Virus record (IMG/VR): IMGVR_UViG_2548876944_000013
Coordinates: 1-23,600 of that record
Length of the DNA stretch: 23,600 bases
Reading direction: 5' to 3' (one strand)
Origin: a virus
Taxonomy: Duplodnaviria > Heunggongvirae > Uroviricota > Caudoviricetes
The notes below the pieces were generated by a model. That model made no database searches. It worked only from the letters and a program-made list of their open reading frames with translations, and was not told the origin of the DNA. Both the position numbers and the translations under genes were made by a program. Positions 3,887-23,017 of this stretch are shown in pieces (within the stretch, counting starts at the first letter, position 1; each line of letters opens with the position of its first letter).

Positions 3887-3888
3887 AA

Positions 3889-4185
3889 TTAAAACTCCAT
3901 GAATTTAAAATATTCAACACCACCTTCACCCCCTAAACCAAAGGAGACGGTGCAGCCAGCAGGAACAAACGAATTTATAGTAGATCCCCAATTGGTCCCA
4001 CCACGACGACGAGCAACGGTCAAACCATCTACGTTAATATGTGCATCAGACCACCCACCACCAGCATTATGACGCATTACAGCGACACCAGCACGAGCAG
4101 TACCATAGCCGTTAGGAATATCAAATACATGCCATTTTAAAGCATCGATTTTAGTATTAATTTCACTACTTACCCAATATCCCAT
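3889..4185 (-). CDS. paralog 1 of the tandem triad (98 aa), function unknown
   Basis: MGYWVSS...VFDIPNGY...VSFGLGGEGGVEYFKF. SD aaggatt upstream. Immediately downstream of the fibre gene. Confidence 0.55.
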   Translation of the reverse strand: MGYWVSSEINTKIDALKWHVFDIPNGYGTARAGVAVMRHNAGGGWSDAHINVDGLTVARRRGGTNWGSTINSFVPAGCTVSFGLGGEGGVEYFKFMEF

Positions 4186-4223
4186 ATAAGAATCCTTAGC
4201 GGAGATTTCTCCCCGCTTTCCAA

Positions 4224-8668: not shown

Positions 8669-9070
8669 TTAAAAACGCGCTAGATAAGAAAATTTAAGGC
8701 TAAGTGTCCCAACGATACCCCCATCACTAGAATCATCGTCATAATCGGTATTAGAAGCTACTGGAGTGATATCTGAAATAGAGAAGCCCAAATCTTTAAA
8801 TCGTGGGTTATCTGGCTGAATCTGGATTATCTGGCAAATACCCTCATGAATTTTCGTTTCATGAATCTGAGAATATAACTGCATTTCGATAACGCATTCA
8901 GCTTGCATTGCATTACCACCACGGCCCCTAGTGTAAGTCTCATTCATTCCGGTGATCCAACAAACCACGTCATCACTAAAGCCTTGCTGAGTTTGTTCTA
9001 CGTTTAAAGCCAGACCTAAATCTTGTTCGATAATATCTTGCAAGGCGCGTTTGATTTTCAGTCTAGGCAT
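8669..9070 (-). CDS. putative head-tail joining / tail completion protein (134 aa from the ATG at 9070; ORF track extends to 9139)
   Basis: The ATG at 9070-9068 lies 4 nt after the stop of the upstream gene (coupling). The longer upstream extension overlaps the preceding gene by 65 nt. Assignment is by position after the capsid gene only. Confidence 0.4.
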   Translation of the reverse strand: MPRLKIKRALQDIIEQDLGLALNVEQTQQGFSDDVVCWITGMNETYTRGRGGNAMQAECVIEMQLYSQIHETKIHEGICQIIQIQPDNPRFKDLGFSISDITPVASNTDYDDDSSDGGIVGTLSLKFSYLARF

Positions 9071-9074
9071 GTTA

Positions 9075-9365
9075 TTAACGGTAGCGAGCATGTGTACCCC
9101 CTGCCAGAGTAATAAAGCAATCAGTGGTATTATCACCATTGCGCTTAACGTATTGAACTTTGAAACGCTGGTTTTCTACAATGACAATATCACCCTGCTT
9201 TAAGTCTCCCTCACGACAAAATAGAAATTCTGTCTCTGTCATTACCCCTTGTTCGTCGGTAGTAGTAATTTCATGATAAGCACGAATTGATTTACCACCT
9301 TCCACCGAAAATACAGGAGCACTTCGGAACATTCTTGATAATTGTGATTCTGATAATTTGAACAT
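9075..9365 (-). CDS. putative head completion / head-tail adaptor protein (96 aa)
   Basis: Small ORF directly after the capsid gene and its terminator. SD aggggg. Size and predicted beta-rich sequence fit adaptor proteins, but there is no specific motif. Confidence 0.4.
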   Translation of the reverse strand: MFKLSESQLSRMFRSAPVFSVEGGKSIRAYHEITTTDEQGVMTETEFLFCREGDLKQGDIVIVENQRFKVQYVKRNGDNTTDCFITLAGGTHARYR

Positions 9366-9556: not shown

Positions 9557-11563
9557 TCAGTCAGCGGAGATGTGAAGAACTTTCAGCGCTTCCGGCTGGG
9601 TTACAACGTAATCCAGATCTACCCAGATACGCGGAACGATAGCAGACTGTGCGCGGTAGGTAGTGTCATCAATGTCAAGTTCCAGACCCCCCCATTCACC
9701 GATGGTAATAGCGTCGAACGATCCCAGAACGATGTGGTCTACCGGAATAACACCAGAAGTAACTACGTCGTAACCAGCCAGTTTACCGTTTTCGATGATA
9801 TAACCGGAAACACCGTTATCTTTCAGGGTAGATTCCAGTTCAGCAGCAGTTGCACCGCTCATTGCAAACTTGATCGCCTGAGCAGGAACGCCAGCGTCGG
9901 TCAGTTTAGCAATTTCTTTCAGGAAGTCTTTATAAGAGAAAGCAGCTTTCTTCTCTACGCGACCAGCATCTACCAGTTGTTTAATCACACCAGCCGGACC
10001 ACGAGCATTTTCTTTGTCGGACAGAATCAGTTGTTCCAGTTTGATGCGAACAGCCTGGTTAATGTGATCAGTGATCAGGGTAGCGATCCCAGGAACGGTC
10101 TTGAGGCTAGCCCTAGAAATTGGGTTGCCACCAGCAAAAGTTTTCGGAGCCATTTTCACGTTCGCAAATTCGGCTTTACCTTCCGGTGCAGCACCGTTTT
10201 CATCAACGAAGCCGAAAGATTCAACGCTAGAAGCGGTCATTTTCGGAATAGCGGTCGGCGAAGTCAGACCAGACAGGACTTTCACACCCAGACGACCCAG
10301 AACGGATTCCGGCATCAGCATCGCTACATAGGAATCATTCAGCAGTTTTTCGTCAGTTACAGCGGTCAGAGTAGCTTTGGTGTTACCATCAGCAGCAGCA
10401 CGCATAGCAGCAGTAGGAACGAATACGGAGCCACCGCGAGCAGCACGACCACGCTGCATAGTTGCAGTAGCAGCCATTGCAGAAAACTCGGCTTCGTTAG
10501 CACCCAGAGCTTCACCATCTACCAGAGAGCGAATTACGTTGTTCAGGTCAAAAGTTTTTTCCATTTTAGAGTCCTTAATTTGTTGTTCGTTATTACGTTG
10601 AGCATTGGTAATGTTATTTAGTGCCTTAGTGCGGAATGCTTCCGGCGTCATGTCTTTAATTGCCAATGCGCGTTCTAATTCTTCGTCGTTAATATTTAGT
10701 TCGCGTGCAATTTCGCGAATTTCTAATTCGTCTTCTTCGGAACGTTCAGCCACTTCCTCGGTTTTTTCTTCTTCAACCGGAGCGGCTTCACGTTCTTCTT
10801 TTACTTCTTCTGTTTCCCGAACAGTTGAACTATCATCATCAACACTTTCAGGATGTTCAGCGTCTTTTCCGTCTTCGAGATTTTCATCTTCTTTATTCTC
10901 TTCAACTTGGCGCTCTTGAGTTTCTTCAACTTCCGATTCTTTATTTTCTTCTACCGGAGTTTCTTCAACCTGAGCGGATTCTTGTTCTTCTTTGATTTCT
11001 TCAATTTGTTCTTTAGTCATATCGCGTTTAGCCTCCAAATTAACTGTGATAGTATTTAGAGAGCGATTTAAACCGACCGAATCGTCCGCCGGGACCGTAA
11101 CAAAACTTAATTCGAACGGAACAAACTTAGTAACAATCAATTGCCCTTTGGTGTAGTCGATGTGATATTCTTTAATGTCATAGCCGACAGAAATTTTTTC
11201 CATCGTACCTTCAATGACTTTATTACGAATATCATTAGCCAAAGTGCCATGCTTAGAGAATCTAACGGTCGCACGGCCTACTTTATCCGCATCGATTCGA
11301 GCGTTACAAACGACACCTAAATGATTATCGAAATTATGATTAAACAGCAACGGAGCGTTATTATTCAGACGAGACAGATCAACCGCTTCCGGTGTATGTA
11401 CCAGAATTTCATCTAATACCACCATTTCTTGATTTTGCTCATCCCAGAATTGGCGCTGATACGGCTGTTCACTGGAGAAAGCAATTTCAAATTCGTATTG
11501 ATCATTATGCCCTTCGTTAATAACTCCACCGTAACCGTTAAGTTCGCGGCGAAATTTAAGCAT
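9557..11563 (-). CDS. prohead protease - scaffold(delta)-like acidic linker - HK97-fold major capsid protein, fused in one ORF (668 aa)
   Basis: N-terminal ~170 aa resemble the HK97-type prohead protease (LLFNHNFDNHLGVV, ISVGY). Residues ~180-330 are Glu-rich and coiled-coil, like a scaffold/delta domain. The C-terminal ~330 aa are capsid-like with strong 'high-expression' codon bias. SD aaggtga. Confidence 0.75.
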   Translation of the reverse strand: MLKFRRELNGYGGVINEGHNDQYEFEIAFSSEQPYQRQFWDEQNQEMVVLDEILVHTPEAVDLSRLNNNAPLLFNHNFDNHLGVVCNARIDADKVGRATVRFSKHGTLANDIRNKVIEGTMEKISVGYDIKEYHIDYTKGQLIVTKFVPFELSFVTVPADDSVGLNRSLNTITVNLEAKRDMTKEQIEEIKEEQESAQVEETPVEENKESEVEETQERQVEENKEDENLEDGKDAEHPESVDDDSSTVRETEEVKEEREAAPVEEEKTEEVAERSEEDELEIREIARELNINDEELERALAIKDMTPEAFRTKALNNITNAQRNNEQQIKDSKMEKTFDLNNVIRSLVDGEALGANEAEFSAMAATATMQRGRAARGGSVFVPTAAMRAAADGNTKATLTAVTDEKLLNDSYVAMLMPESVLGRLGVKVLSGLTSPTAIPKMTASSVESFGFVDENGAAPEGKAEFANVKMAPKTFAGGNPISRASLKTVPGIATLITDHINQAVRIKLEQLILSDKENARGPAGVIKQLVDAGRVEKKAAFSYKDFLKEIAKLTDAGVPAQAIKFAMSGATAAELESTLKDNGVSGYIIENGKLAGYDVVTSGVIPVDHIVLGSFDAITIGEWGGLELDIDDTTYRAQSAIVPRIWVDLDYVVTQPEALKVLHISAD

Positions 11564-11608: not shown

Positions 11609-12073
11609 TTAGGGATCGGTTGGGGAATTTTTTTCTTCACCCTCACCATCAACGATAATATTTAGTGCGCTCTTTTCGGCTTGAATCTCTGAGAATACTT
11701 TTTCAGGATCATCACCACGTTCTAATATAACGGCAGTACGTGATTTAAGTCCTTTATCAATTAAAGCAATCTCGGCGTTTACGTCTTTAATTGGATCGAC
11801 GGATTCAAAACGCGGACGAATAATAGTAGTGTTGTCGATAATATGCGGAATTGCAGTAATACGAATCGGAACAATACCACGCGCGGAATAATGGCGTAGA
11901 TATGCTTCAAAAATTGGCAATACCACTGTTTCAATTAATTTGTTTTGCAGTGCTTTAACTCGTGTGCGTTGAGTTAATTCACCAAAACGCGCGGCTGAGT
12001 AGTTGATCTGGGAAGTATCACCAGTCAAGCCCTGTTTAAACACGCCTAAGCCCATTGATACGCTAGTAAACAT
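11609..12073 (-). CDS. portal protein, C-terminal portion (out of frame with the upstream portal ORF)
   Basis: Overlaps the 357-aa ORF by 28 nt in a different frame, and this frame is open far upstream of its ATG. No SD before the ATG at 12073. The two ORFs together span ~1.5 kb, the size of a lambda-gpB-type portal gene. Confidence 0.5.
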   Translation of the reverse strand: MFTSVSMGLGVFKQGLTGDTSQINYSAARFGELTQRTRVKALQNKLIETVVLPIFEAYLRHYSARGIVPIRITAIPHIIDNTTIIRPRFESVDPIKDVNAEIALIDKGLKSRTAVILERGDDPEKVFSEIQAEKSALNIIVDGEGEEKNSPTDP

Positions 12074-13119
12074 CGCATCATTGAAGCTGTTAAAGTCATC
12101 ACCGCTTTGGCGCTCTGAATTGCCTTGATCGTTGCCCCTTCCGGCAATTCCTGAATAGTACCCGGTGCAAAATCCTGTACTACTTCCGGCGCTTGATATT
12201 GGTCTTCATCTTCGCCAGTATCAAAATCGTCACCAGAATCTTTCGGACGTTCGATAAAGCCCATAGAGCTAGCTGCAATACGTTTCTGGATGATCGCAGT
12301 TTCGCGGAATGCGTCTTGATGTGCGATATCCTTGATCACTGGTAGGAAGTCAGTCACACCACGCAGAGATTCAGCCGTAAGTGGTTGATAATAATGGCAT
12401 ACTTGCGAAGCCTCGACACGATAGTTATCACCTGTGTAGGTCTGAGTCAGTAGATTGACTTTACGAAACCAGTATGCAACAGGGCGCATTGTGTTCACGT
12501 CATACTCCACACCTTGATATATCGCACGTTCTTTGCTTACTTCACGATTGAGCGACCAGTCGCACTTATCAGCAGACAGGATAGAAACATTTAACTCATT
12601 GTTTTCTTTGGTTAAAACGATGAAGCACTCACCACCCATAACGCGCTCACGTTCAGCCATTACCAGCAGTTCACGGAAGTTAAAGCGACCATTGCGGGAG
12701 AAGCGTTTAGCATTCTGCGCCCACTTCCAGAAAGCATTCTCAATCTGCTTATTCAGTGCGCTATCAAGTTTGCCATTTGATTTAACAACTGACGGCTTCG
12801 GATCTAGGCCAGTACCGACCACCATATCGGTGATGTATTGCGTGTAGCGACTGCCTACGGAAGTGTTTAAGGCCAGAGTACGACCCTGATCATAAAGGCG
12901 CTTACCGTTCGATTTGAGAGCCTTATTGAAGGTTCCGGTAATGGTGTCTTGTTGAAGCTGTCCATCAATGCGATCACCGACCAAGCCCAAAGAACGCTTA
13001 GACAAATCTTTCTGGAATTTTTCTACTTGTTTGTCGATAAAGATTTTTTGTTGTTGCTGGCGGTGATTAGTTTTAACTGGAGTTTCTACCGCCTTTTTGC
13101 GTCGAAAAAGATTAAACAT
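12046..13119 (-). CDS. portal protein, N-terminal portion (357 aa ORF)
   Basis: Position directly after the large terminase gene and an intervening small gene. SD aagggg. Called as portal mainly from position and the combined ~500-aa size of the two ORFs; no specific portal motif was identified. Confidence 0.55.
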   Translation of the reverse strand: MFNLFRRKKAVETPVKTNHRQQQQKIFIDKQVEKFQKDLSKRSLGLVGDRIDGQLQQDTITGTFNKALKSNGKRLYDQGRTLALNTSVGSRYTQYITDMVVGTGLDPKPSVVKSNGKLDSALNKQIENAFWKWAQNAKRFSRNGRFNFRELLVMAERERVMGGECFIVLTKENNELNVSILSADKCDWSLNREVSKERAIYQGVEYDVNTMRPVAYWFRKVNLLTQTYTGDNYRVEASQVCHYYQPLTAESLRGVTDFLPVIKDIAHQDAFRETAIIQKRIAASSMGFIERPKDSGDDFDTGEDEDQYQAPEVVQDFAPGTIQELPEGATIKAIQSAKAVMTLTASMMRCLLAYQWA

Positions 13120-13696: not shown

Positions 13697-15604
13697 TTAG
13701 AACGATGTTACCCAGCTACGGCCTCTATTTGGGCGTCTGGCGATGTTTTGACGTTGTGGTCGTGTGATTGGCTTAGTTTCTTCTATTTGCTCGTCAGATT
13801 GCGATTTAGGAGCTTCTACGGATTCTTCGACAACACGGTTTAAGCTGTCTTTCATTGCAATGAGTTTATCCCATGACATTTTTGAAAGAACGTAGCGAGA
13901 AGCAGCATAGCTATAAACCAGACAGTCGAGAGCCTCGTTTCGGGTACTACCTGGATTTTTCACCCAACGCACGCCAGTAGTAGTACGCTTGATGGATTCA
14001 CTCAAAAGCTGATCGAGATAATCATCAGGAACGGTTTCTGATATTTCTAAGCCAATATGAGGATTATCTTTCAGGTTTCTAACCAGCATTTCACGAACAG
14101 CGGATTTACCAACGTTAACACCCAGCATAAGCAATTCATGACCACCTGTGCGGGTAGGTTTAACCGGAATCACTGGAGCATTACCAGATGAACTACCTTT
14201 GATAGCGTGTAGGTTCTTCCACTTGCCGCAAATACGGTATCCGGCTTGAGTGAATCGACCGTTCGATGTATCAAGGAAGCTGGCGAGCATTGGTACACGT
14301 TCACCATTAACGTTATAGAATTTGGTTTTCTTGAAGTTAACCAGGCGATCCCAAACAGGTGATTCATATCGTTCACAGTTATGATCGTAAAAGCTGCGGT
14401 GATCCAGAATGTAAACCTTATCTTTCGCTACACCTAAGATGGTAGATTCTGCGCGGTCCAATTGCTGGTCAATTCCTGAACACAAGAAAATCACGTCATC
14501 AGGGATATTCTCGATAGAAACATCTGTTTTGAGTTGTTCCAGTTCATTTGCTTCTACTGCCGTGTCCTGATCGTCGTATACCTTGCCTAACACGGTGTTA
14601 AAAAAGGATTGTAAATCAAAGGATTGCCACGCATGACTAAAATCAACCACACAAGCGCGGATACTACTGAAAGGTGAATACAGACGGCTGATCCAGAATC
14701 CTGCTACTTCACTTTCACGGGTTGCTCTCCACTCGCCTTGCGCTACTGCCCTAATTCGTTCCCCTTCTGTCCATGCGTTCTTACAGTGGGGGCAAATATA
14801 ACGAGCGGTATCAGGATCGGGTAAGTTCTTACCATCGATGTTACGCCATTCAAATTGAACGTTTTCCCACTCGATCACCTGGTGTTCCCCGCAATGAGGA
14901 CACGGAACAAAAAACATACGCATATCGCTTGATAACCATTGCTGGTTAATGCTTCCGAGCTTACTGGTCGGGGTACTGGATACGACTAATCGGCCTTCAT
15001 CGCCAAAGGTAGTTAAACGGTTAGCAGCCAGTGCCACCGGATCACCTTCTTCTGAGGCTGTAGCAGCATCGATTTCGTCAAGCAATCCAACCTTTGCGGT
15101 CTTACCACGTAGGGTCGATGGACTGGTTAGCGATACCATGTAAAGGAAGTGATTCGTTTTTAGCTGTAGCTGGTTATTGTTGTTAACCGCATTGCGATCA
15201 TTCTTGTCTGTAACCACGTCTTTTAATGCATCACATGCTTCGATAGACGGTCGGATCTTACCAGCGAGATATTGAGACATTTCTTTAGCGGTTGATTGTC
15301 CGATAATCATATTGCATGGATCGTTAGCCATCTGGTTAAACAGGATACCGTTCAGGATGGTAGTCTTTCCGATCTGCGCACTGGTCATCAGAACATACTT
15401 TTTCTTGTTCTCAAGGAAAGGAGCATCAATCATGCCTTTCTGGAATGACAGCAATTTAACTTTATCCCCAGCTTGAGGACCATCTACCAGCACCATATTA
15501 GCTTCGCACCATTCAGAAGGAAGGAGCTTAGGCGGTGGCGTAATATATTTGGCTGCATTTTTGAGAATCTTTTTTAATTTGGCCTTATTAGAAATTAGTT
15601 TCAT
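13697..15604 (-). CDS. terminase large subunit (GpA family, 635 aa)
   Basis: Walker A-like [11 protein letters not shown] near the N-terminus. CPHCGE...CPHCKN double-cysteine motif mid-protein. Length and domain order match lambda-gpA-type terminases. SD gaggg. Confidence 0.8.
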
Positions 15605-15691: not shown

Positions 15692-16294
15692 ATGCTAATT
15701 AATCAGCAAGAAAGAGATGAATTAGAATTAGCCTTGTCTTGTACCGATCATGAATATCGTTTGCCAGTTAAGCACCATCACAAGAAGACTGATTACACAA
15801 CATCCGGCTTTAGTCGCGAGGAAGCGAAACAGATTTTAATCGAGTTGTATCGCGATCATGGGTATACCGATATTCATAACTTCTTTAAGAAGCATCGCAC
15901 ATCACAGACAGAGTTTCAGCGAGTCCGTGAATGGTTTGATTTTGATATCAAGCGTTATTATCGAGTGGATGACGGTCCAATCTATCGGTTGCAGTGGAAG
16001 CCGATCAGGGAAGTGCTTAAACAGAAGAGATTGAATCATGCCATTACACGCTATCGTAACGTGGCTTTCAAGAAAGGCTATGGTGATTCAAGGGAATTGT
16101 TTGTAGAACTCGCTAACGTGCGATATAGCCACTATTACAGGAATCCTAAAGAGTTCTTCGAAGTGCTGCGCAAGGTTGATATTAGTCGGGGTACATATTA
16201 TTCACGGTTGAAGAAGTACGGGATTAAGGCAGAGTTCTTTATGTCGGTTGACGATGGAGAACTTTTTCCGATAAAATGTAAGTCCTCTAAATAA
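15692..16294 (+). CDS. hypothetical basic protein (200 aa) with C-terminal helix-turn-helix-like segment; member of a 3-protein paralog family
   Basis: Strong SD aaggaggg. C-terminus [20 protein letters not shown] resembles the C-termini of the 85-aa and 64-aa proteins. Transcribed divergently from the terminase gene. Confidence 0.45.
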
Positions 16295-16323
16295 AGGTGA
16301 ACATTCACTTTAATTTGGAGAAA

Positions 16324-16554
16324 ATGACTATGACTACTAAAGCTACTCGCGGTCGCCCTGCCCGTTTTAATCGTGAACAACTGGCAGCGATTGTAAAAGC
16401 ATACTATCAAGCACCGAAAGGTAAAGAGAACAAAGAACGGGTATTAAATGAGCATGGCTTATCTATAGCCCAGCTATACAAATCCCTACATAAAGTTGAT
16501 TTGAAATTCTTTGTTCAGGTTGACGGTGAAATGGTAGAAGCAACAGGAATTTGA
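16324..16554 (+). CDS. small DNA-binding protein (about 76 aa from the ATG at 16324; ORF track begins at GTG 16297)
   Basis: N-terminus TRGRPARFNREQLAAIVKAYY is a GRP-x-KF/HTH-type motif common in small phage DNA-binding and terminase-small-subunit N-domains. Followed by a strong terminator. Confidence 0.5.
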   Translation: MTMTTKATRGRPARFNREQLAAIVKAYYQAPKGKENKERVLNEHGLSIAQLYKSLHKVDLKFFVQVDGEMVEATGI

Positions 16555-17452: not shown

Positions 17453-17543
17453 AGTAAAATTCCCCTTAATTAACGGTTTTGCGATTTAATCCTCCCTGTT
17501 CCGGCATCACCACCGGAACAATTTTATTTATAAGAGCTATTTC

Positions 17544-17798
17544 TTATTTGTTGTTAGCACACAATCCGCGTAAAGCCATTTGCAAAGGTGATGGTTTCGG
17601 TGCTTTGGATTCGTCTTTATATTCCACATCCACGGTTTCGGTAGCCCAACCAAAGCCCTTAACATAACGACGACGGCGGGTTTCGATCACCCCTGGTTCA
17701 CGTTCACGGAACATCTTCATTAACTTGTCATTGTGGAAGCTATCAGCATCAAAACCTAACAGGATGAAAGGAGTAGTGGTAGTCATTTTATGGTTCAT
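17544..17798 (-). CDS. hypothetical protein (84 aa)
   Basis: SD gagga 9 nt upstream of the ATG. Lies upstream of the Rha-family gene on the same strand. No motif recognised. Confidence 0.4.
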   Translation of the reverse strand: MNHKMTTTTPFILLGFDADSFHNDKLMKMFREREPGVIETRRRRYVKGFGWATETVDVEYKDESKAPKPSPLQMALRGLCANNK

Positions 17799-17997
17799 AG
17801 TGGAAATCCTCTAAAAGAAAGTGAATCAATCTAATATTATTTATAAAGAGAAAATTCTTGTTATTATGAAAGGTGATTGTATTCAGTCGGGCATAGCCCT
17901 CCTTCATAGTTTTGATTAAATCATCATCAAAACGAAGAAGTATCTTTAGAATATAAGAATCTTTCTTTTGGAGAAATAATAATCAGGAAGCAATTTA

Positions 17998-18026
17998 GCA
18001 ACCGAAGGTTGCAATCCCGAAGGGAT
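17998..18026. other. two adjacent short hairpins with GAA/UUC loops
   Basis: gcaacc-gaa-ggttgc followed directly by atccc-gaa-gggat. Confidence 0.4.
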
Positions 18027-18123
18027 ACCAATACCTTTCTAGAAAGTGATTGTTACTCACTTCGTTCGTTTACTAGAATCAGTTAGTAACTAGTATTAAA
18101 TCCCTTTCTAAGAAAATCCTTTC

Positions 18124-18258
18124 AAAAGCGAGTGAACGCCGTAGGCGTGAACGTGAGCGAAGCGAACTATCCAATCCCTTTCGAATCCTGCTTGCAGGTC
18201 TTAGAAGGTGTTGATGGGCGCTTCGCGCACGGCTACGCCGTATTCTTTTTGCGAGATC
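18124..18258. repeat. large imperfect inverted repeat with internal 5-bp-stem mini-palindromes
   Basis: Left arm carries acgcc-gta-ggcgt and gtgagcgaagcg. Right arm carries cgcttcgcgcac and acggc-tac-gccgt. The centre holds cctgcttgcagg. Region is GC-richer than its surroundings. Confidence 0.45.
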
Positions 18259-18372
18259 TTTCTTGAACGTAGTGAGAGAAAACGAGCAAAAAGGAGAACG
18301 TTAGTTCGAATTTTATATTCTATGGTCTGTGGGGCTAAATATCCTTCAAGATCATACACTTATGAGATTGAA

Positions 18373-18491
18373 GTGTAGGGTTAGTGTAGGTGTGTAGGTT
18401 TCATAGTGTAGGTTTGAGGGTGTTATAGTGTAGGTTTACTGGCTAGTGTAGTGTAGGCCAATCCCTTTAAAGTGTAGGTTTGTAGTGTAGG
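18373..18491 (+). repeat. iteron-like array: eight direct copies of GTGTAGG (extended (T/A)AGTGTAGG(T/G)TT)
   Basis: Copies start at 18373, 18384, 18392, 18406, 18428, 18451, 18472 and 18485, all in the same orientation, in a non-coding region. Confidence 0.7.
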
Positions 18492-18599
18492 GTTTTCATC
18501 AAAAATTTTGATAGAAAATTCTTGTATATTATTTAATCATAAAATCACCAAAAATCTCGGTAACCGCATGATTTAAAAGGAATGATCAAAAGGTCGCCG

Positions 18600-18608
18600 T
18601 GCTATAAT
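18600..18608 (+). promoter_or_regulatory. candidate extended -10 promoter (TGcTATAAT)
   Basis: Perfect TATAAT at 18603-18608 preceded by TG at 18600-18601. No good -35. Confidence 0.35.
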
Positions 18609-18688
18609 AGGTTATAAAGGTTGATAATCGTTATCCGCCATTTTCACACAAAAATTTTGATAGTCATTTCTCGCTTAGATCAAGTGTA

Positions 18689-18717
18689 TTGACAACTGTC
18701 AAGGATTATTTTATACT
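18689..18717 (+). promoter_or_regulatory. sigma70-type promoter with operator-like palindrome over the -35
   Basis: TTGACA (18689-18694), 17-bp spacer, TATACT (18712-18717). The -35 sits inside the palindrome ttgacaactgtcaa. Confidence 0.55.
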
Positions 18718-19059
18718 TTTTCTCGTTGGTAGGGGTTGAAATTTTCGAAACAATCCCCATATTGATGATAAGCAAGATTTTTTCGTGTATAAATACATGC
18801 ATGAAATGATTGTTCACTTCTGAAAATCCCCTGATTCACTGTTAACACATACAGCACTGGTTAAACATACAGTACTTTTTCGATTGAATAATGTACGAAT
18901 TGATTAATTATTAATCTTATCTTTAGCAATTCGTGCTCCCACTGATCGGATATACAGTGGTTTTACAGGGTTTTCTGAAAATCATTTTATAAATAGAAGT
19001 ATCGAGGGCGAAAAGCTCTTTTTATTGTCCTTATTAATCCACATTTGAGGAATCTACTT

Positions 19060-19239
19060 ATGGCTAGACCTGTTAAGTTTACTCGTGAAATGATTGTTGA
19101 TATTGCTAAACGCTTTTATGGCGATACTGAACGAGGCGGCGAGAATTTCTTTAAGAAGGAAGGAATTGATAGAAGCGGATTCTATAAGCTAATGAAGAAA
19201 TACGAAATTCAGATAAAGATTAACGTTCAAGTTTGTTAA
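19060..19239 (+). CDS. small HTH DNA-binding protein (59 aa from the ATG at 19060), paralog of the 85-aa protein
   Basis: MARPVKFTREMIVDIAKRFY...GIDRSGFYKLMKKYEI. SD gagg 9 nt upstream. The ORF track starts at an upstream TTG. Confidence 0.5.
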   Translation: MARPVKFTREMIVDIAKRFYGDTERGGENFFKKEGIDRSGFYKLMKKYEIQIKINVQVC

Positions 19240-19282
19240 TCCACTTTCACTGAGAATTATATGATGGCTTTAAAAATAAAAA

Positions 19283-19313
19283 AGCCTCCCTGTTGGCGCA
19301 AGGAGGCTTTTAG
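19283..19313 (+). terminator. hairpin terminator/attenuator between the HTH gene and the acidic-protein gene
   Basis: agcctcc...ggaggct, a 7-bp stem with a 12-nt loop, then uuuu. Confidence 0.4.
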
Positions 19314-19358
19314 CATGAAACATTAAAACTAACACAGAGCATTCAGGAGTATTTATAA

Positions 19359-20354
19359 ATGAAAAATTCTAAGCGCATCACCTTCAACCTGTTTATTAAA
19401 TCCAACGGCAAACTGAACATTACCGTCATGGAAGGTAAAGCAAGCAAACAAGACAAATCCTTTGAAGTAGTATCCGGTAAGACTCTGACCGAAATGCGTC
19501 AGAATGCTGGCATCAAAGACGGTGCTGAATGGCAGATCACTAACCGTTTCGACAAACGTCACGTTAAACCTACACTGGTAGAAGGTGAATCCGTTTATTG
19601 CTTCGCTCGTGCTGTTAAAGCTGATGAAACTTACTATCTGGCTGTTGTTAAAACTGCTTCCGGCTTCCGTGCTGTAATGCATCACAAGAGCAAACGTAAC
19701 GAATACGGCGTAGAGACCCAGGAAGTCGCAAAACGCTTCCGTACTGTTGCTACCGAATCCACTGTAAAGGATGTTTCTGGTACTGTTAACACCGCTAAAG
19801 GCGGTTCCTTCTACAACCACGCATTACAGGTTACTTCCTCCTTCTTCTGCAAAAAAGAAGCACAGAAAGAAGTTTCTCCGGTAGTAGTTGAAGAAGTTAA
19901 AGAAGAAGTTGCAGTGGTTGAATCTTCCGAAGTTGAAGCACTGAAAGCACGCATTGCTGAACTGGAAGCTGAAAACGCATCTCTGAAAGCTGAACTGGCA
20001 GCACAGGAAACCACTTTCGAAGTAGCAGCGGTTGAAGTTGAAGCAGTTGAAGAAAAATCCATTGATGAAGAACTGGAAGAACTCCTTAACTATCGCTGGG
20101 GTGTTGTTGCAGAAGTAGAACAAGAAGTTGCTCCGGTAGTTGTTCCGGTTGAAGTTGAAAAAGAATCCGCACCTGTTACTAACTTTGAATCCCTGCGCAA
20201 TAACTTTATGGCTAAATTCAAAACCACTTGGGAAGATACCGAAGAAGAACAAGAAGAGATTGAAGTAAACGAAGACGAGATCCGCGAAGCACAGATGGCA
20301 CTGCATGACGCTATCTACGACACCAACTACAGCGCCTACGCATACGCAGCTTAA
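19359..20354 (+). CDS. highly acidic protein (331 aa) with strongly optimised codon usage; function unknown
   Basis: SD caggag 9 nt upstream. Codon choice (CGT, CTG, GGT, GCT, TCC, ACC, GAA, AAA) matches that of the capsid and tail tube genes. The C-terminal half is Glu/Val/Ala-rich with a coiled-coil segment EVEALKARIAELEAENASLKAELAAQE. Confidence 0.6.
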   Translation: MKNSKRITFNLFIKSNGKLNITVMEGKASKQDKSFEVVSGKTLTEMRQNAGIKDGAEWQITNRFDKRHVKPTLVEGESVYCFARAVKADETYYLAVVKTASGFRAVMHHKSKRNEYGVETQEVAKRFRTVATESTVKDVSGTVNTAKGGSFYNHALQVTSSFFCKKEAQKEVSPVVVEEVKEEVAVVESSEVEALKARIAELEAENASLKAELAAQETTFEVAAVEVEAVEEKSIDEELEELLNYRWGVVAEVEQEVAPVVVPVEVEKESAPVTNFESLRNNFMAKFKTTWEDTEEEQEEIEVNEDEIREAQMALHDAIYDTNYSAYAYAA

Positions 20355-20369
20355 TAGAGGGGTGAATCT

Positions 20370-20612
20370 ATGATGAATCAAAACAAAGAATTTCTGGGTA
20401 ATCTGATGTTAGAAATTACCAAAATGAAAGAAAGAATGGTAGCGATGGAATCAGAGATTAAAACACTTAAAGCTGATAATAAGGCGTTGAGAAAGTCCTT
20501 AAAGCTGATTGATGAGACTAATGCGGTTATGATGGATCATGTATTCCCTGAGTGGCGAAATGAAACTAAACCTACACAACATAAGAAACTTACACTTCGA
20601 ATTGTTGCATAA
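20370..20612 (+). CDS. small coiled-coil protein (80 aa), likely co-transcribed with the 331-aa gene
   Basis: Start 15 nt after the upstream stop with SD agagggg. Heptad-like MKERMVAMESEIKTLKADNKALRKSLKLI. Confidence 0.5.
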   Translation: MMNQNKEFLGNLMLEITKMKERMVAMESEIKTLKADNKALRKSLKLIDETNAVMMDHVFPEWRNETKPTQHKKLTLRIVA

Positions 20613-20617
20613 AAAAA

Positions 20618-20635
20618 GGGACTCCGAAGAGTCCC
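20618..20635 (-). terminator. hairpin terminator (7-bp stem; A7 on plus side, T7 on minus side)
   Basis: gggactc-cgaa-gagtccc. U7 follows on the minus strand. Lies directly after the 80-aa gene stop on the plus strand. Confidence 0.55.
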
Positions 20636-20720
20636 TAGTAAGTTTAGGTTAGGTTTGCACAACAAAGATGAGGTTATAATGAACATAATGCTACATTATT
20701 CTTTAAAGCCAGAAAAATAA

Positions 20721-20736
20721 CCGCCCCGAAGGGCGG
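20721..20736 (-). terminator. intrinsic terminator (minus strand)
   Basis: ccgccc-cgaa-gggcgg. The minus-strand reading has a UUCG loop followed by uuauuuuucu. Confidence 0.5.
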
Positions 20737-21324: not shown

Positions 21325-21879
21325 TTAAGACACATCAAATTCATCGTCTTCTTCTGGTTCTTGTTCCGGTTCATCGATTAATGCTAATTCTTCTTCCTCG
21401 TCTTCTCCCAAATCCGCATTTTCGAACAAGTCCCCTACTTCATTTAAACGACGCTCGATGATCTCCCTTAGCTTATTCTTCAATGTTTTCTGATCAGTGG
21501 CAGATTCGAGAATTTCTAAAGCGTCGATTGTGGCGATCTGCAAAATAGTCTGTTTCACCTTTCCGCAATATTCCGCTAGTTCCTGTTCTACATACCCGAC
21601 AGGAATCAGGAGATTCATTTTTTCCTGGTTCTCTCGTTCGGCTGCATCTGCCAAAGCACGCTCACGGCGTAATTTCTCTACATCGATTTGTTCTTTGATA
21701 GAAGTTTGTTTAAGCGGGTTGATAATATTTTTCAAGACCCATTCTGTTCCTTCTTTGGCTGGCACGCGGCGGGTATTGGTGTTAAATGGCAATCCCCTTT
21801 CTAACCATCGCTTACCGCCACCATTCAATGTATAACCATATAAACGGGAAATTTCTGTAAGGGTTAATTCTTCTTTCAT
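21325..21879 (-). CDS. Nu1-like DNA-binding protein, candidate terminase small subunit (184 aa)
   Basis: N-terminal winged-HTH-like LTLTEISRLYGYTLNGGGKRWLERGLPF and EKLRRERALADAAERENQEK resemble lambda Nu1 as I recall it. Acidic C-terminal tail. It is 5.7 kb away from the large terminase gene. Confidence 0.45.
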   Translation of the reverse strand: MKEELTLTEISRLYGYTLNGGGKRWLERGLPFNTNTRRVPAKEGTEWVLKNIINPLKQTSIKEQIDVEKLRRERALADAAERENQEKMNLLIPVGYVEQELAEYCGKVKQTILQIATIDALEILESATDQKTLKNKLREIIERRLNEVGDLFENADLGEDEEEELALIDEPEQEPEEDDEFDVS

Positions 21880-22237: not shown

Positions 22238-23017
22238 ATGAAAAACATTATCGCTGCTATCGTGCTTTCTGCTACTGCTTTCGGTGCTGATGCTGCGTCC
22301 TTTGATTGCACTAAGGCTACTACCAAAGCAGAGAAGTTTATTTGTGCTAATGAGTCAATCTCCGCACTGGATTCTAAACTTCATGAAGTATATGTTAAGG
22401 CTGTTAAGATTGATCCGTCTCTTAAACAAGAGCAACGCAACTGGAATAAAACTGTTCGTGATACAATGATCAATATCGGGCAGATTCAGCCACTGGAGGC
22501 TGTATACAACGCTCAAATCCAAAACTTGATGAATGTATTATCTAAAGAAGAAACCGCGTCAGAGAGCGATTCAGAGACTTCTGCGAAGATTGAAGAAGAA
22601 CAACCGAAACAGGAAGAAGTAAAGAAACTGAATGTTACCGCGATTTACGCATGTACTACAAAATTTACATGGAAAGTTATCGATGGTGAGGAAACAGAAG
22701 CTGTAAAAGATAAACTCTACGGAAACAAAACTTTTGATAATAACGGCGGTAAACTTAAGATCAAAATGGTAGACGATGTTCCTGTATCTTTTGTGTATTC
22801 CGACAAGTATGATGTTTATAAATCAAGTCTCAAGCCATCTAAAGAGAATCCAAACGCAATGGAAGGTAAATCCAAACAGGATGCTATTGGACGTGTTAAC
22901 ACTTATAACATCTGGGTAAGCAAAAAAGGTGACATGCGTCTTGAAGTAATTGAACCAAAATTTGATTCTGAATATAAACACACTCAATTTGCATGTGACA
23001 TGGTAGACGCAGAGTAA
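22238..23017 (+). CDS. secreted protein with N-terminal DUF1311 (LprI-type lysozyme-inhibitor-like) domain and uncharacterised C-terminal domain (259 aa)
   Basis: Signal peptide MKNIIAAIVLSATAFGADA. SFDCTKATTKAEKFICANESISALDSKLHEVY...QRNW matches the DUF1311 cysteine pattern. SD agagg. Codon usage is the 'high-expression' type. Confidence 0.55.
   Translation: MKNIIAAIVLSATAFGADAASFDCTKATTKAEKFICANESISALDSKLHEVYVKAVKIDPSLKQEQRNWNKTVRDTMINIGQIQPLEAVYNAQIQNLMNVLSKEETASESDSETSAKIEEEQPKQEEVKKLNVTAIYACTTKFTWKVIDGEETEAVKDKLYGNKTFDNNGGKLKIKMVDDVPVSFVYSDKYDVYKSSLKPSKENPNAMEGKSKQDAIGRVNTYNIWVSKKGDMRLEVIEPKFDSEYKHTQFACDMVDAE

What the first reader, a model, noticed from the sequence alone, without database searches (positions are those of the whole stretch)
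19060..20612. Codon-optimised, extremely acidic 331-aa protein with an 80-aa coiled-coil partner under a small HTH gene
The 331-aa gene uses the same highly biased codon set as the capsid and tail tube genes, which implies very high expression, yet it lies outside the structural operon on the opposite strand. Its C-terminal half is almost entirely Glu/Val/Ala with a leucine-zipper-like segment. That composition is seen in DNA mimics and anti-restriction/anti-defence proteins, and also in scaffold-like proteins. It is preceded by a small HTH gene and a strong promoter and followed by a coupled 80-aa coiled-coil protein and a terminator, so it looks like a discrete module. I cannot assign it to any family I know.
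Basis: partly seen in the sequence, partly recalled or inferred. Interest (0 to 1): 0.65.

Follow-up and report, generated by a model that had tools for sequence, protein, structure and literature searches.

The report
Phage iteron-binding protein with ClpX adaptor
This heavily expressed prophage gene most likely encodes the protein that recognises a nearby array of short DNA repeats, probably the phage's replication origin, and the small gene after it looks like a helper that connects it to the host ClpXP protease; it does not look like a DNA mimic or a scaffold.

Summary
The three ORFs are real (59 aa 19060-19239, 331 aa 19359-20354, 80 aa 20370-20612, + strand). The 331-aa gene has the strongest E. 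coli codon adaptation in the window: CAI 0.71, z = 13. Only its C-terminal half is acidic; residues 1-170 are basic. The window is the right part of a ~36-kb E. coli prophage with no recognisable replication or repressor genes.

The protein has no detectable family or fold. In 35 related prophages the same slot holds five N-domain types. Each type always occurs with its own array of 5-13 direct repeats about 0.9 kb upstream (here 8 x GTGTAGG, 18373-18491, followed by an AT-rich block). The genes in between recombine freely. I therefore read the N-domain as the repeat-specific DNA binder.

In the window and four of the six C-terminal variants the protein ends in an ssrA-like -AA tail. Exactly those variants are followed by a gene whose product ends in ..RPTLR[LVI]VA. 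That closely matches the ClpX-binding tail of SspB (RGGRPALRVVK).

Best reading: an origin-binding initiator working like lambda O, turned over or remodelled by ClpX(P) through its own adaptor. A Mu-like repressor is the main rival. DNA mimic and scaffold readings are not supported. The very high expression remains unexplained.

The parts
18373..18491 (+). Iteron array: 8 direct copies of GTGTAGG (extended consensus AGTGTAGGTTT), start-to-start spacing 11, 8, 14, 22, 23, 21, 13 nt.
   Evidence: There are 12 matches in the window against 1.19 expected, 8 of them here and all in one orientation. This is the only cluster in the 38-kb prophage. The repeat sequence changes with the N-domain type of the 331-aa-slot protein in 35 of 35 loci.
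18497..18560 (.). AT-rich block directly after the last iteron. It contains the near-palindrome ATCAAAAATTTTGAT, and a second copy lies at 18649-18663.
   Evidence: D5, I3; 50-nt windows with at least 82% A+T at -569/-559 from the p59 ATG. The block is conserved behind the different iteron types in L006, L007, L018, L032 and L036.
18689..18717 (+). Near-consensus sigma-70 promoter TTGACA-17-TATACT. Its -35 hexamer lies inside the palindrome TTGACAACTGTCAA.
   Evidence: 11 of 12 matches. The promoter and palindrome arms are conserved across the slot types.
18722..19030 (+). About 300-nt leader. It holds three CACTG-N10-CAGT(G) elements (18837-18861, 18855-18879, 18940-18964), a conserved TTATAAATA (18987-18995) and a conserved small terminator AGAGC-GAAA-GCTCT-T5 (19004-19026).
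   Evidence: (D1).
19060..19239 (+). p59, a 59-aa basic protein that is a stand-alone Fis-type HTH. The 74-aa ORF 16330-16554 is a paralogue, and the 200-aa ORF 15692-16294 holds two copies of the motif.
   Evidence: Its sequence variants are shuffled relative to iteron type, so it is not the iteron partner.
19246..19274 (+). Conserved block that may be a weak promoter. It reads TTGACT-N17-TTTAAA in most relatives and TTCACT in the window, and it ends just before the hairpin.
   Evidence: Alignment of 11 loci. The 18-mer CTGAGAATTATATGATGG is unique in the window. Promoter function is inferred only.
19280..19311 (-). 13-bp hairpin with a conserved run of T on the minus strand. It is a terminator for leftward transcription. 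On the + strand it could serve as a 5' stabilising hairpin for the mRNA of the 331-aa gene.
   Evidence: (I22). The A-run upstream is conserved in all loci, and the U-run on the + strand is not.
19359..19868 (+). 331-aa protein, N-domain (aa 1-170): basic and beta-rich. Inferred to be the iteron-specific DNA-binding domain (type A).
   Evidence: pI 9.8. Beta strands with pLDDT 60-72. Only 3 clusters found among 1.84 billion representatives. Five N-domain types each pair with their own iteron.
19920..20024 (+). Leucine zipper (about aa 188-222) with Asn204 at an 'a' position.
   Evidence: AF2 helix 189-246, pLDDT 77-84 for residues 190-215. Weak bZIP and coiled-coil Pfam hits. The heptad reading is my own.
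20025..20183 (+). Acidic E/V/A/P-rich linker that varies in length.
   Evidence: Indels and repeat expansions among close homologues. pLDDT below 50.
20184..20354 (+). C-terminal helical module ending in the ssrA-like tail ..LHDAIYDTNYSAYAYAA (tail 20313-20351), followed by the stop codon.
   Evidence: Every 331-aa-type homologue, and every relative with one of the other three -AA C-terminal modules, ends in -AA: YAYAA, (YA)n-A, YVRAA, DFAA, VRKAA. The ssrA tag is AANDENYALAA, and its ALAA part binds the ClpX pore (PMC8512704).
20370..20612 (+). p80, an 80-aa basic coiled-coil protein. Its C-terminus ..KPTQHKKLTLRIVA (20580-20609) resembles the ClpX-binding XB peptide of SspB.
   Evidence: All downstream-gene products of this family (74, 76, 80, 113, 123, 286 and 333 aa) end in L-R-[LIV]-V-[AG], usually preceded by [RK]-P-T. 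The SspB XB peptide is RGGRPALRVVK-COOH (PMC3983244, PMC8808172).
20617..20636 (-). Hairpin with its T-run on the minus strand. With 20721-20736 it terminates the leftward TerS transcription unit and insulates the module.
20721..20736 (-). Second minus-strand terminator downstream of the TerS unit.

Best explanation
The 331-aa protein is the sequence-specific binder of the direct-repeat (iteron) array 0.9 kb upstream.

I think the array plus its adjoining AT-rich block is the replication origin of this temperate phage. The protein would then be its origin-binding initiator, working like lambda O or an iteron-plasmid Rep without being homologous to either.

Proposed roles of the parts:
- The basic N-domain reads the repeats.
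- A short leucine zipper dimerises the protein.
- A long acidic flexible linker carries a small C-terminal module that ends in an ssrA-like -AA tail.
- The 80-aa protein encoded next to it is a dedicated ClpX adaptor. Its coiled coil holds the 331-aa protein, and its C-terminal ..TLRIVA tail docks on the ClpX N-domain as the SspB tail does.
- As a result the initiator is degraded, or its complexes are remodelled, by host ClpX(P).
- Very efficient translation would compensate for this turnover and supply enough protein for many genome copies with 8 sites each.

Shown here: the ORFs, the codon bias, the repeat array, the one-to-one co-variation of repeat type with N-domain type, and the tail motifs with their co-occurrence.

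Inferred: DNA binding, origin function, ClpX docking and degradation, and the reason for the high expression.
For: 1. Specificity pairing.
- In 35 loci (window, L003-L036) the five N-domain types pair 35/35 with five repeat sequences: A with AGTGTAGG, A' with AGTGCAGG, B with CAGGGGCAA, C with ACGGGGA, D with CTAAAC.
- The 840-nt segment between the array and the gene is conserved.
- Sequence clusters of p59 and of the leftward ~150-aa gene each occur with several types.
- p59 is 57/59 identical in the window (type A) and L006 (type B).

2. Origin-like anatomy.
- There are 5-13 direct repeats (6-13 in types A, A' and B), all in one orientation in types A-C; type D also has two inverted copies, and a few stray inverted copies occur elsewhere.
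- The array is followed within about 10 nt by a conserved AT-rich block in types A, B and C.
- It is the only cluster in the 38-kb prophage.

3. A function is missing.
- The prophage (serine recombinase, lysis, tail, head, Nu1-like TerS, gpA-like TerL) has no recognisable replication gene.

4. Link to ClpX.
- The downstream proteins all end in [RK]P-T-L-R-[LVI]-V-[AG], against the SspB XB peptide RGGRPALRVVK, which binds the ClpX N-domain (PMC3983244, PMC8808172).
- The 331-aa protein ends ..DTNYSAYAYAA, against ssrA AANDENYALAA (PMC8512704).
- All 19 loci whose slot protein ends in -AA have such a downstream gene (in L004 it is cut by the contig end).
- The 15 type-B loci ending ..SYCQ have none (in L016 the contig ends at the stop of the slot gene, so nothing downstream could be seen).
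- L036 is a recombinant: a type-B N-domain with a different C-half ending ..VRKAA and a 123-aa ..GLRLVA gene.

5. Precedent.
- Lambda O is a ClpXP substrate that needs the same N-domain site of ClpX (PMC3983244).
- From my own knowledge, RK2 TrfA and P1 RepA are activated by ClpX and ClpA.

6. Expression.
- CAI is 0.55-0.71 in all five types, against 0.19-0.39 for the flanking genes.
Against: - Replication initiators are not normally codon-optimised to the level of capsid proteins. The expression level is not really explained.
- No homology or fold match to any initiator, or to any DNA-binding domain at all, was found. The AF2 models are poor (pLDDT 44 and 51), so DNA binding rests on co-variation alone.
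- No convincing DnaA boxes are conserved.
- In L003 no AT-rich window next to the array reached the 82% A+T threshold, and in L004 and L014 no such window was found anywhere in the scanned region; the arrays there also sit at other distances from the promoter.
- Type B (15 loci) and type D lack the -AA tail and the adaptor gene. ClpX control therefore cannot be essential to the core function.
- AYAA was not among the tested degrons, and the XB-like tail ends in A or G rather than K.
- Co-occurrence of the tail and the adaptor gene could reflect simple linkage, since the two are adjacent.
- Five specificity types on otherwise ~90% identical backbones look more like diversifying selection on immunity than on an origin.
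Confidence: 0.4

Rival explanations
1. It is an immunity or maintenance repressor built like the phage Mu c repressor: an N-terminal DNA-binding domain, a leucine zipper and a ClpX-sensitive C-terminus. The protein coats the repeat array and silences the lytic control region in the lysogen. High synthesis balanced by ClpXP turnover, helped by p80 acting in the way Mu Vir proteins 'trans-target' the repressor, would set the induction threshold. The five types would be heteroimmunity groups.
For: - No cI/cro-type repressor was found anywhere in the prophage.
- Five non-alignable specificity cassettes sit on ~90% identical backbones with no mismatched pair in 35 loci. This is the classic signature of immunity regions.
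- The gene lies downstream of a near-consensus, probably constitutive promoter.
- The domain order matches Mu c (my own knowledge).
- The ClpX-type tails are as described.
- High turnover would explain the codon optimisation.
Against: - The array is at least 190 nt from the nearest predicted promoter and about 520 nt from the conserved TTATAAATA element upstream of the leftward gene. It overlaps no promoter in types A-C.
- There is a single array and no further operator sites in the genome.
- Adjacency to an AT-rich block is not expected for an operator.
- Three Fis-type HTH proteins and a Rha-family regulator are alternative regulators, and conserved palindromes overlap the strong promoter.
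- Known repressors are not codon-optimised to this degree (my own knowledge).
Confidence: 0.25
2. It is a centromere-like adaptor of the ParR or TubR kind. The protein assembles on the repeat array and uses its C-terminal module to attach the phage genome to a host or phage structure, for positioning or segregation of replicating or excised genomes. p80 would act as a modulator, as TubY does.
For: - The layout is formally the same as parC-parMR or tubC-tubRZ(Y): direct repeats, then a small HTH gene, a larger protein and a coiled-coil protein (comparison from my own knowledge).
- The array has phased direct repeats.
- Specificity types resemble incompatibility groups.
Against: - No NTPase (actin-, tubulin- or ParA-like) is encoded in the module or elsewhere in the prophage, and the protein has no conserved nucleotide-binding motif.
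- The element integrates into the chromosome with a serine recombinase and needs no partition.
- p59, the small HTH protein, does not co-vary with the repeats.
Confidence: 0.07
3. It is a packaging-specificity accessory. The array is part of the cos/pac recognition region, and the abundant protein helps terminase choose the phage's own DNA, comparable to cosB-binding factors or lambda gpFI.
For: - The module lies between the TerS gene (21325-21879) and the TerL gene (13697-15604).
- Type-specific packaging could be selected against satellites or related phages.
- Lambda gpFI is made in large amounts (my own knowledge).
Against: - A Nu1-like TerS with its own N-terminal HTH is present. It is about 70% identical across the iteron types, so it does not follow them.
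- The region upstream of the TerS gene is the usual place for cos.
- Eight to thirteen direct repeats next to an AT-rich block are not typical of cosB.
- A link to ClpX has no known role in packaging.
Confidence: 0.05
4. This is the first reader's idea: an acidic DNA mimic, anti-restriction or anti-defence protein, or alternatively a scaffold-like or other structural protein made in capsid-like amounts.
For: - The C-terminal half is acidic (pI 4.05), and codon adaptation equals that of the capsid and tail tube genes.
- There is a weak sub-threshold Pfam hit to Phage_scaffold in the coiled coil: E = 0.024, 15 bits against a cut-off of 35.
- The gene sits between terminators like a moron.
Against: - No similarity to Ocr, ArdA or any PADLOC, PHROG or Pfam family was found.
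- The acidic part varies in length, is poorly conserved and is predicted as disordered. The conserved parts are the basic N-domain and the last ~55 residues.
- Neither idea predicts five N-domain types locked to five DNA repeat types.
- The capsid gene already carries a protease and an acidic scaffold-like linker, and the gene is 8 kb from the head genes.
Confidence: 0.06

Closest known systems
Lambda O protein with ori-lambda (and P)
   Same: - The N-terminal domain of the initiator sets specificity for a set of iterons, and an AT-rich region adjoins them.
- The C-terminal part contacts a partner protein encoded next door.
- The protein is short-lived because of ClpXP and needs the adaptor-binding site of the ClpX N-domain (PMC3983244).
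   Different: - There is no sequence or predicted-fold similarity.
- The iterons lie 0.9 kb upstream of the gene rather than inside it.
- There are 8-13 short direct repeats instead of four 19-bp sites.
- The degron is a C-terminal ssrA-like tail, with a separate XB-tailed helper.
- The gene is codon-optimised like a capsid gene.
- No P, DnaB or DnaC-like gene is present.
Iteron-plasmid initiators (P1/pSC101 RepA, R6K pi, RK2 TrfA)
   Same: - Direct repeats lie beside an AT-rich region and upstream of the gene for their binding protein.
- Dimers are remodelled or degraded by Clp chaperones (ClpA for P1 RepA, ClpX for TrfA; my own knowledge).
   Different: - No winged-helix Rep domain is detectable (Pfam, NCBIfam and PDB searches negative).
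- The repeats are shorter (8-11 bp core) and irregularly spaced.
- The element is an integrated phage, not a plasmid.
- Expression is very high.
SspB adaptor and the ssrA tag of E. coli
   Same: - The downstream proteins end in ..RPTLR[LVI]VA after a Pro/Lys-rich linker. SspB ends in ..RGGRPALRVVK, and that tail tethers it to the ClpX N-domain.
- The substrate ends in ..NY-x-A-Y-A-Y-A-A, against ..NYALAA in ssrA.
- Both adaptors are likely dimers.
   Different: - There is no SspB substrate-binding domain. The body is a coiled coil (74-123 aa) or an unrelated beta-rich domain plus a coiled coil (286 and 333 aa).
- The last residue is A or G, not K.
- The adaptor is phage-encoded and dedicated to a single neighbouring substrate.
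- Binding and delivery are untested.
Phage Mu c repressor (and Vir trans-targeting)
   Same: - The domain order is an N-terminal DNA-binding domain, a leucine zipper, then a C-terminal tail that controls ClpXP degradation.
- A zipper partner can deliver the protein to ClpXP in trans.
- It binds multiple repeated sites.
   Different: - There is no homology.
- The repeats do not overlap predicted promoters.
- The protein has a long acidic linker.
- Its codon bias is far higher.
ParR/parC and TubR/tubC/TubZ/TubY partition modules
   Same: An array of direct repeats is followed by a small DNA-binding protein gene, a larger protein gene and, in phage c-st, a coiled-coil modulator gene.
   Different: - No NTPase motor is present.
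- The small HTH protein is not the repeat-specific partner.
- The element is integrated in the chromosome.
SPO1 Gp53, a phage-encoded adaptor-like protein of B. subtilis ClpCP (PMC6873191)
   Same: A phage protein that plugs into a host Clp unfoldase as an adaptor.
   Different: - The target protease differs (ClpCP).
- It is a host-takeover function of a virulent phage.
- There is no SspB-like tail and no linked phage substrate.

Membership tests
SspB-type ClpX adaptor (tethering by an XB tail) | An extreme C-terminal peptide ..[RK]P-x-L-R-V-V-K after a flexible linker. | tested here: met
   p80 ends ..KPTQHKKLTLRIVA. Relatives end ..KNRPTLRVVA..KHRPTLRLVA..QEKPTLRLVG..NKGLRLVA. L-R-[LIV]-V is invariant in every family member read in full. 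The SspB XB peptide is RGGRPALRVVK. This is a motif match only, and the last residue differs (A/G versus K).
SspB-type ClpX adaptor (tethering by an XB tail) | An SspB substrate-binding domain (Pfam SspB). | tested here: not met
   There are no Pfam or NCBIfam hits for the 80-, 286- or 333-aa proteins. It is therefore not a member of the SspB family and at most mimics its tail.
SspB-type ClpX adaptor (tethering by an XB tail) | Binds the ClpX N-domain and stimulates degradation of a bound substrate. | not testable with these tools
   This needs pull-down and degradation assays.
ssrA-like C-terminal ClpX degron | A non-polar C-terminus ..A-[L]-A-A-COOH on an accessible tail. | tested here: met
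   The window protein ends ..YSAYAYAA. The -AA ending is kept in types A, A', C and in the L036 recombinant despite (YA)n expansions. It is absent from type B (..SYCQ) and type D (..SMFA). AYAA itself is not among the tested degrons.
ssrA-like C-terminal ClpX degron | ClpXP-dependent instability in vivo. | not testable with these tools
   This needs a pulse-chase experiment in clpX and clpP mutants.
Lambda O-type origin-binding initiator | The N-terminal domain co-varies with the iteron sequence, and an AT-rich region lies beside the iterons. | tested here: met
   The type pairing is 35/35. The AT-rich block starts within about 10 nt of the last repeat in types A, B and C.
Lambda O-type origin-binding initiator | Sequence homology to Phage_rep_O or replisome-organiser families, with iterons inside the gene. 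| tested here: not met
   There is no Pfam, PHROG or NCBIfam hit. The iterons lie 868-986 nt upstream of the start codon.
Lambda O-type origin-binding initiator | Supports origin-dependent replication and recruits a helicase or helicase loader. | not testable with these tools
   This needs an origin-cloning test and interaction assays.
Iteron-plasmid Rep proteins (Rep_3, RepA, pi, TrfA) | Winged-helix Rep domains. | tested here: not met
   Pfam, NCBIfam and PDB profile searches were negative. The predicted N-domain is beta-rich.
DNA-mimic anti-restriction proteins (Ocr, ArdA) | Homology, or a compact fold displaying a fixed array of acidic residues. | tested here: not met
   There is no family hit. 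The acidic part has indels among close homologues and pLDDT below 50. Given the poor model, this is a weak test of the fold criterion.
Phage scaffolding protein | Family membership, or a gene placed with the portal, protease and capsid genes. | tested here: not met
   PF06810 scores 15 bits against a cut-off of 35, in the coiled coil only. The gene lies 8 kb from the capsid gene on the other strand.
ParMRC / TubZRC partition systems | A cytomotive NTPase gene in the operon. | tested here: not met
   The module holds only the 59-, 331- and 80-aa ORFs, and none has a nucleotide-binding family hit or a conserved P-loop.
Mu c-type repressor | Operators that overlap the early promoters. | tested here: inconclusive
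   The array is at least 190 nt from the nearest consensus-type promoter. However, the promoters of this phage have not been mapped experimentally.
Fis-type HTH (Pfam HTH_8), for the 59-aa protein | A match to the HTH_8 domain. | tested here: inconclusive
   No Pfam hit passes any threshold. Residues 7-51 do align at 42% identity (pairwise E = 6e-8) with the region of a sigma-54 activator that Pfam calls HTH_8.

The most novel reading that the evidence does not exclude
The module is a self-contained, phage-encoded proteolytic control unit of a kind not yet described. It consists of a very abundantly made DNA-binding protein with a new, rapidly diversifying repeat-recognition fold, and a dedicated adaptor that copies the ClpX-docking tail of the host SspB. 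Through this adaptor the phage uses ClpXP as a timer or remodeller for its origin, or for its lysis-lysogeny switch. The long acidic linker and the excess of protein might build a larger assembly nucleated on the repeats.
Probability: 0.3. Interest if true: 0.8.

Novelty: new variant of a known kind. Interest (0 to 1): 0.62.

Why it matters
If this reading is right, it identifies the missing replication or control module of an unstudied lineage of E. coli, Shigella and Salmonella prophages.

It would also provide:
- A new family of sequence-specific DNA-binding domains, with five natural specificities already matched to their target sites. That is a ready-made set for studying DNA recognition.
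- To my knowledge (my literature search was limited), the first phage protein that mimics the SspB tail to recruit ClpX.

The last point would be a compact natural example of a virus installing its own adaptor on a host AAA+ protease. It could also serve as an orthogonal degradation tag and adaptor pair. All of these claims can be tested directly with standard genetics and biochemistry in E. coli.

Tried and rejected
- Family searches on the three proteins and on neighbours or relatives gave only sub-threshold coiled-coil noise. These were Pfam, PHROGs, NCBIfam and PADLOC.
- tblastn of the 331-aa protein against 50,697 phage records found no match. Megablast against plasmids found none.
- The word-indexed search of 5.8 billion proteins returned only E. 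coli/Shigella proteins at least 94% identical among the 120 listed.
- A full HMMER scan with the N-domain gave 3 real clusters. A search seeded with the 46% relative gave one more, from Salmonella.
- A profile search of PDB sequences found only coiled coils.
- Rfam found no family in the window.
- Literature searches for prophages integrated in hicB or ycdX found nothing relevant.
- The scan of GTDB species genomes with the p59 alignment returned only the Fis-type HTH of myxobacterial sigma-54 activators. That helped to classify p59 but gave no distant relatives of the module.
- I looked for extra iteron copies as operator-like sites. Two inverted GTGTAGGTTT copies lie inside the 331-aa and 80-aa genes. 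Both come from K-P-T codons and are absent from the other types, so I treat them as coincidence.
- Conserved DnaA boxes were not convincing.
- The RNAalifold structure of the ~300-nt leader is stable, but the sequences are too similar to show covariation.


Full report
**What is in the sequence**

The three + strand ORFs exist as described: 19060-19239 (59 aa, 'p59'), 19359-20354 (331 aa) and 20370-20612 (80 aa, 'p80').

I computed CAI with the Sharp-Li E. coli weights, typed in from memory of the published table.
- The 331-aa gene scores 0.713, the highest in the window.
- The tail tube gene scores 0.625, and the major-capsid part of the capsid gene scores 0.52-0.78.
- Most genes score 0.23-0.45. 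p59 scores 0.26 and p80 scores 0.23.
- Redrawing the gene's codons from the usage of 22 other ORFs gives 0.396 +/- 0.024, so z = 13.2.

The protein is bipartite rather than uniformly acidic.
- Residues 1-170 are basic (pI 9.8, net +13).
- Residues 171-331 are acidic (pI 4.05; E 24%, V 15%, A 14%).
- The whole protein has pI 4.87.

**Context**

The window is the right-hand 23 kb of a chromosomal E. coli prophage.
- The 1.85-kb module is 99.9% identical in strain 14EC017. There the ~38-kb element (about 36 kb without two IS copies) splits hicB and carries a large serine recombinase at its other end.
- The prophage encodes lysis, tail and head genes, a gpA-like TerL and a Nu1-like TerS (PHROG 57, E = 1.6e-10).
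- It also encodes a Rha-family regulator and several small proteins.
- It has no recognisable replication gene and no cI/cro-type repressor.
- No sequenced phage isolate is close. The best TerL match is 43% identical.
- The 331-aa gene is present in 18 of 5426 complete E. coli genomes.

**Homology and fold**

Nothing identifies the 331-aa protein.
- Pfam, PHROGs, NCBIfam and PADLOC give only sub-threshold coiled-coil hits.
- tblastn against phage records finds nothing.
- The 5.8-billion-protein index listed only E. coli/Shigella copies at least 94% identical among its best 120 of 202 hits.
- A full HMMER scan of 1.84 billion representatives with the N-domain finds three real clusters.
- AlphaFold2 models are poor (pLDDT 44 and 51). 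They show a beta-rich N-domain, one confident helix at about residues 189-222, and disorder elsewhere.

**The repeat array and its partner**

Upstream of the module, at 18373-18491, lie eight direct copies of GTGTAGG (consensus AGTGTAGGTTT).
- The window holds 12 matches against 1.19 expected, and all eight here share one orientation.
- They are followed at once by an AT-rich block with a near-palindrome.

Related prophages keep the same gene order. These are L003 (Salmonella), L004 and L005, the E. coli loci L006 and L007, and 29 IMG/VR contigs L008-L036.

In all of them the gene after p59 encodes a protein with the same plan:
- a beta-rich N-domain of about 170 aa;
- a coiled coil;
- an acidic E/V/A/P linker;
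- a small C-terminal module;
- CAI of 0.55-0.71.

The N-domain comes in five types. A and A' are 46% identical. C is only marginally similar to A. B and D are weakly similar to each other.

Each type has its own repeat:

| N-domain type | Repeat sequence |
|---|---|
| A | AGTGTAGG |
| A' | AGTGCAGG |
| B | CAGGGGCAA |
| C | ACGGGGA |
| D | CTAAAC |

- There are 5-13 copies. All are direct in types A-C, apart from a few stray inverted copies. Type D (one locus) has five direct and two inverted copies.
- The pairing holds in 35 of 35 loci.
- The 840 nt between the array and the gene (window 18497-19333) are conserved across types.
- The sequence variants of p59 inside that segment occur with several types. 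One cluster, defined at 90% identity or more, holds 12 type B, 5 type A and 3 type C loci.
- The same is true of the leftward ~150-aa gene.
- p59 is 57/59 identical in the window (type A) and L006 (type B).

Recombination therefore separates everything else, but never the array from the N-domain. I conclude that the N-domain is the repeat-specific DNA-binding domain. This is an inference from co-variation, and no binding was measured.

**The two C-terminal tails**

All homologues of the 331-aa protein end in -AA.
- The endings are ..LHDAIYDTNYSAYAYAA, with (YA)n expansions in some copies..NNLYVRAA..RELLDFAA and ..FDVRKAA.
- The E. coli ssrA tag is AANDENYALAA. Its ALAA end engages the ClpX pore, and AANDENY binds SspB (PMC8512704).

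The products of the downstream gene differ greatly in size and sequence (74, 76, 80, 113, 123, 286 and 333 aa). All end in the same peptide.
- Examples are ..HKKLTLRIVA (window)..HKKPTLRVVA..QEKPTLRLVG..KNRPTLRVVA..KHRPTLRLVA and ..NKGLRLVA.
- The ClpX-binding 'XB' peptide at the C-terminus of SspB is RGGRPALRVVK. It docks on the ClpX N-domain, and as a free peptide it blocks degradation of lambda O and FtsZ (PMC3983244, PMC8808172).

The match R-P-[A/T]-L-R-V-V at the extreme C-terminus, after a Pro/Lys-rich linker, is close. It is also the only part conserved across these proteins.

The two tails go together.
- All 19 loci whose slot protein ends in -AA have an XB-tailed downstream gene. One of these (L004) is cut by a contig end.
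- The 15 type-B loci ending ..SYCQ have none; in one of them (L016) the contig ends at the slot gene, so the downstream region could not be checked.
- L036 combines a type-B N-domain with a different C-half ending -AA and a 123-aa XB-tailed gene.

The body of the downstream protein changes together with the C-terminal module of the slot protein, as expected if they bind each other. Because the two are adjacent, simple linkage could give the same pattern.

p80 is basic and the zipper of the 331-aa protein is acidic. Both zippers carry an Asn at an 'a' position (my own reading), so they may pair.

**Signals**

- The strong promoter (TTGACA-17-TATACT, 18689-18717) has its -35 hexamer inside a conserved palindrome.
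- It is followed by a ~300-nt conserved leader and a conserved small terminator (19004-19026) just before the p59 ribosome-binding site.
- TTATAAATA occurs four times in the window against 0.55 expected, all between 17525 and 19358. It lies in sense orientation 40-80 nt upstream of the Rha gene, the leftward gene and p59.
- The hairpins at 19280-19311, 20617-20636 and 20721-20736 have conserved T-runs on the minus strand only. They stop leftward transcription from the TerS unit rather than ending the module.
- A conserved block just upstream of the 19280 hairpin could be a weak promoter. Its transcript would begin with that hairpin. This is inference.
- p59 residues 7-51 align at 42% identity with the Fis-type HTH_8 domain of a sigma-54 activator.
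- The 74-aa ORF 16330-16554 carries the same motif, and the 200-aa ORF 15692-16294 carries two copies.

**Best explanation**

The array plus the AT-rich block looks like an iteron-type origin, and the phage has no other candidate initiator.

The logic matches lambda O:
- an N-domain and iteron specificity pair;
- a C-terminal part matched to a neighbouring protein;
- ClpXP-dependent instability through the ClpX N-domain.

From my own knowledge it also matches plasmid Rep proteins that Clp chaperones remodel.

I therefore favour an origin-binding initiator whose amount or assembly state is set by ClpX(P) through a phage-encoded adaptor with an SspB-like tail (confidence 0.4).

My confidence in the separate steps differs:
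- Repeat-specific DNA binding: about 0.85.
- A functional link to ClpX: about 0.6.
- Origin function: about 0.4-0.45.

**What does not fit**

- Initiators are not normally translated like capsid proteins. Turnover and the need to fill 8-13 sites on hundreds of genomes are only partial explanations.
- Types B and D lack the ClpX features.
- Conserved DnaA boxes are not evident.
- Five unalignable specificity cassettes on ~90% identical backbones look like diversifying selection on immunity.

**Rivals**

- A Mu-c-like repressor (0.25) fits the domain order, the missing repressor, the diversification and the high-flux expression. However, the single array overlaps no predicted promoter.
- A ParR/TubR-like centromere adaptor (0.07) lacks any NTPase partner, and the element is integrated.
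- A packaging accessory (0.05) is unlikely. A Nu1-like TerS is present and does not follow the iteron types.
In addition, the capsid gene already carries its own acidic scaffold-like linker.

**Novelty**

The protein families are orphans restricted to this prophage lineage.

The working principle is known: an iteron binder under Clp control. The DNA-binding domain, the dedicated adaptor with an SspB-like tail and the expression level are new.

The only phage-encoded Clp adaptor I found in the literature targets ClpCP in Bacillus (PMC6873191).

I rate this a new variant of a known kind, with interest 0.62.

Noticed in passing
window 9557-11563 (-): The capsid gene is a fusion of an S78 protease, an acidic E-rich linker (aa ~180-330) and the major capsid protein. 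CAI jumps from about 0.35 (codons 1-350) to 0.52-0.78 (codons 351-668). An in-frame ATG at codon 334 has AAGGA upstream. Bulk capsid protein may therefore be made from an internal start.
   Followed up: partly
window 11609-13119 (-): The portal gene is split into two ORFs (11609-12073 and 12046-13119). The cause is a one-base deletion near gene position 1010 relative to the intact 1512-nt gene of strain 14EC017. This is either a frameshifted pseudogene or a sequencing error.
   Followed up: partly
window 3263-7754 and 22238-22618: Three regions are 80-94% identical in DNA to T4-like phages: the tail fibre gene (4224-7754), three tandem ~100-aa paralogues (3279-4185) and the start of the LprI-like gene. 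This indicates recent exchange between this temperate phage and virulent T-even phages.
   Followed up: no
window 22238-23017 (+): A 259-aa protein with an N-terminal signal-like sequence and an LprI (lysozyme inhibitor) domain lies at the prophage end, next to the split hicB. It matches PHROG 14799 at E = 4.5e-114 and is a likely moron.
   Followed up: no
window 17525-19358: TTATAAATA occurs 4 times against 0.55 expected, all in this control region. It lies in sense orientation 40-80 nt upstream of the Rha gene, the leftward 80-aa gene and p59. From my own knowledge, the same 8-mer TATAAATA is the T4 late-promoter consensus. It may mark a special promoter class.
   Followed up: partly
window 18722-19030 (+): The near-consensus promoter at 18689-18717 would give a ~300-nt leader ending at a conserved terminator before p59. 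The leader holds three CACTG-N10-CAGT(G) elements and a conserved 14-bp long-range helix. It could be a regulatory RNA or an attenuator. The sequences are too similar for a covariation test.
   Followed up: partly
window 17870-18360: This is a conserved non-coding stretch of about 500 nt between the leftward gene and the iterons. It has several GC-rich hairpins with GAAG- or UUCG-type loops, one of which shows a compensatory change in L005. It also has repeated AATCCCTTTC motifs. Its function is unknown.
   Followed up: no
window 15692-16554 (+) and 19060-19239 (+): There are three paralogous Fis-type HTH proteins in one phage: p59, the 74-aa ORF and the 200-aa ORF, which carries two copies of the motif.
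   Followed up: partly
window 8814-8904 (+): ARAGORN calls a 91-nt tRNA-Glu inside a minus-strand ORF (8669-9139). Rfam finds no tRNA there, so this is probably a false positive.
   Followed up: no
window 17544-17798 (-) versus L006 4664-5116: In the window the leftward gene is an 80-84-aa ORF. It shares only its N-terminus (..TTPFILLGF..) with the ~150-aa very acidic protein (pI 4.2, CAI 0.48) found at this place in most relatives. The window copy appears rearranged or truncated.
   Followed up: no
window 19566-19575 and 20568-20577 (-): Two inverted full-length iteron matches (GTGTAGGTTT) lie inside the 331-aa and 80-aa genes. Both are produced by K-P-T codons AAA-CCT-ACA. They are not found in the other types, so they are probably coincidence.
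   Followed up: yes
L001/L002 (NZ_CP024134.1) and L003, L005-L007: The lineage uses a large serine recombinase and two integration sites: inside hicB (window type) or inside ycdX. In strain 14EC017 the prophage also carries IS1 and IS421 insertions.
   Followed up: no
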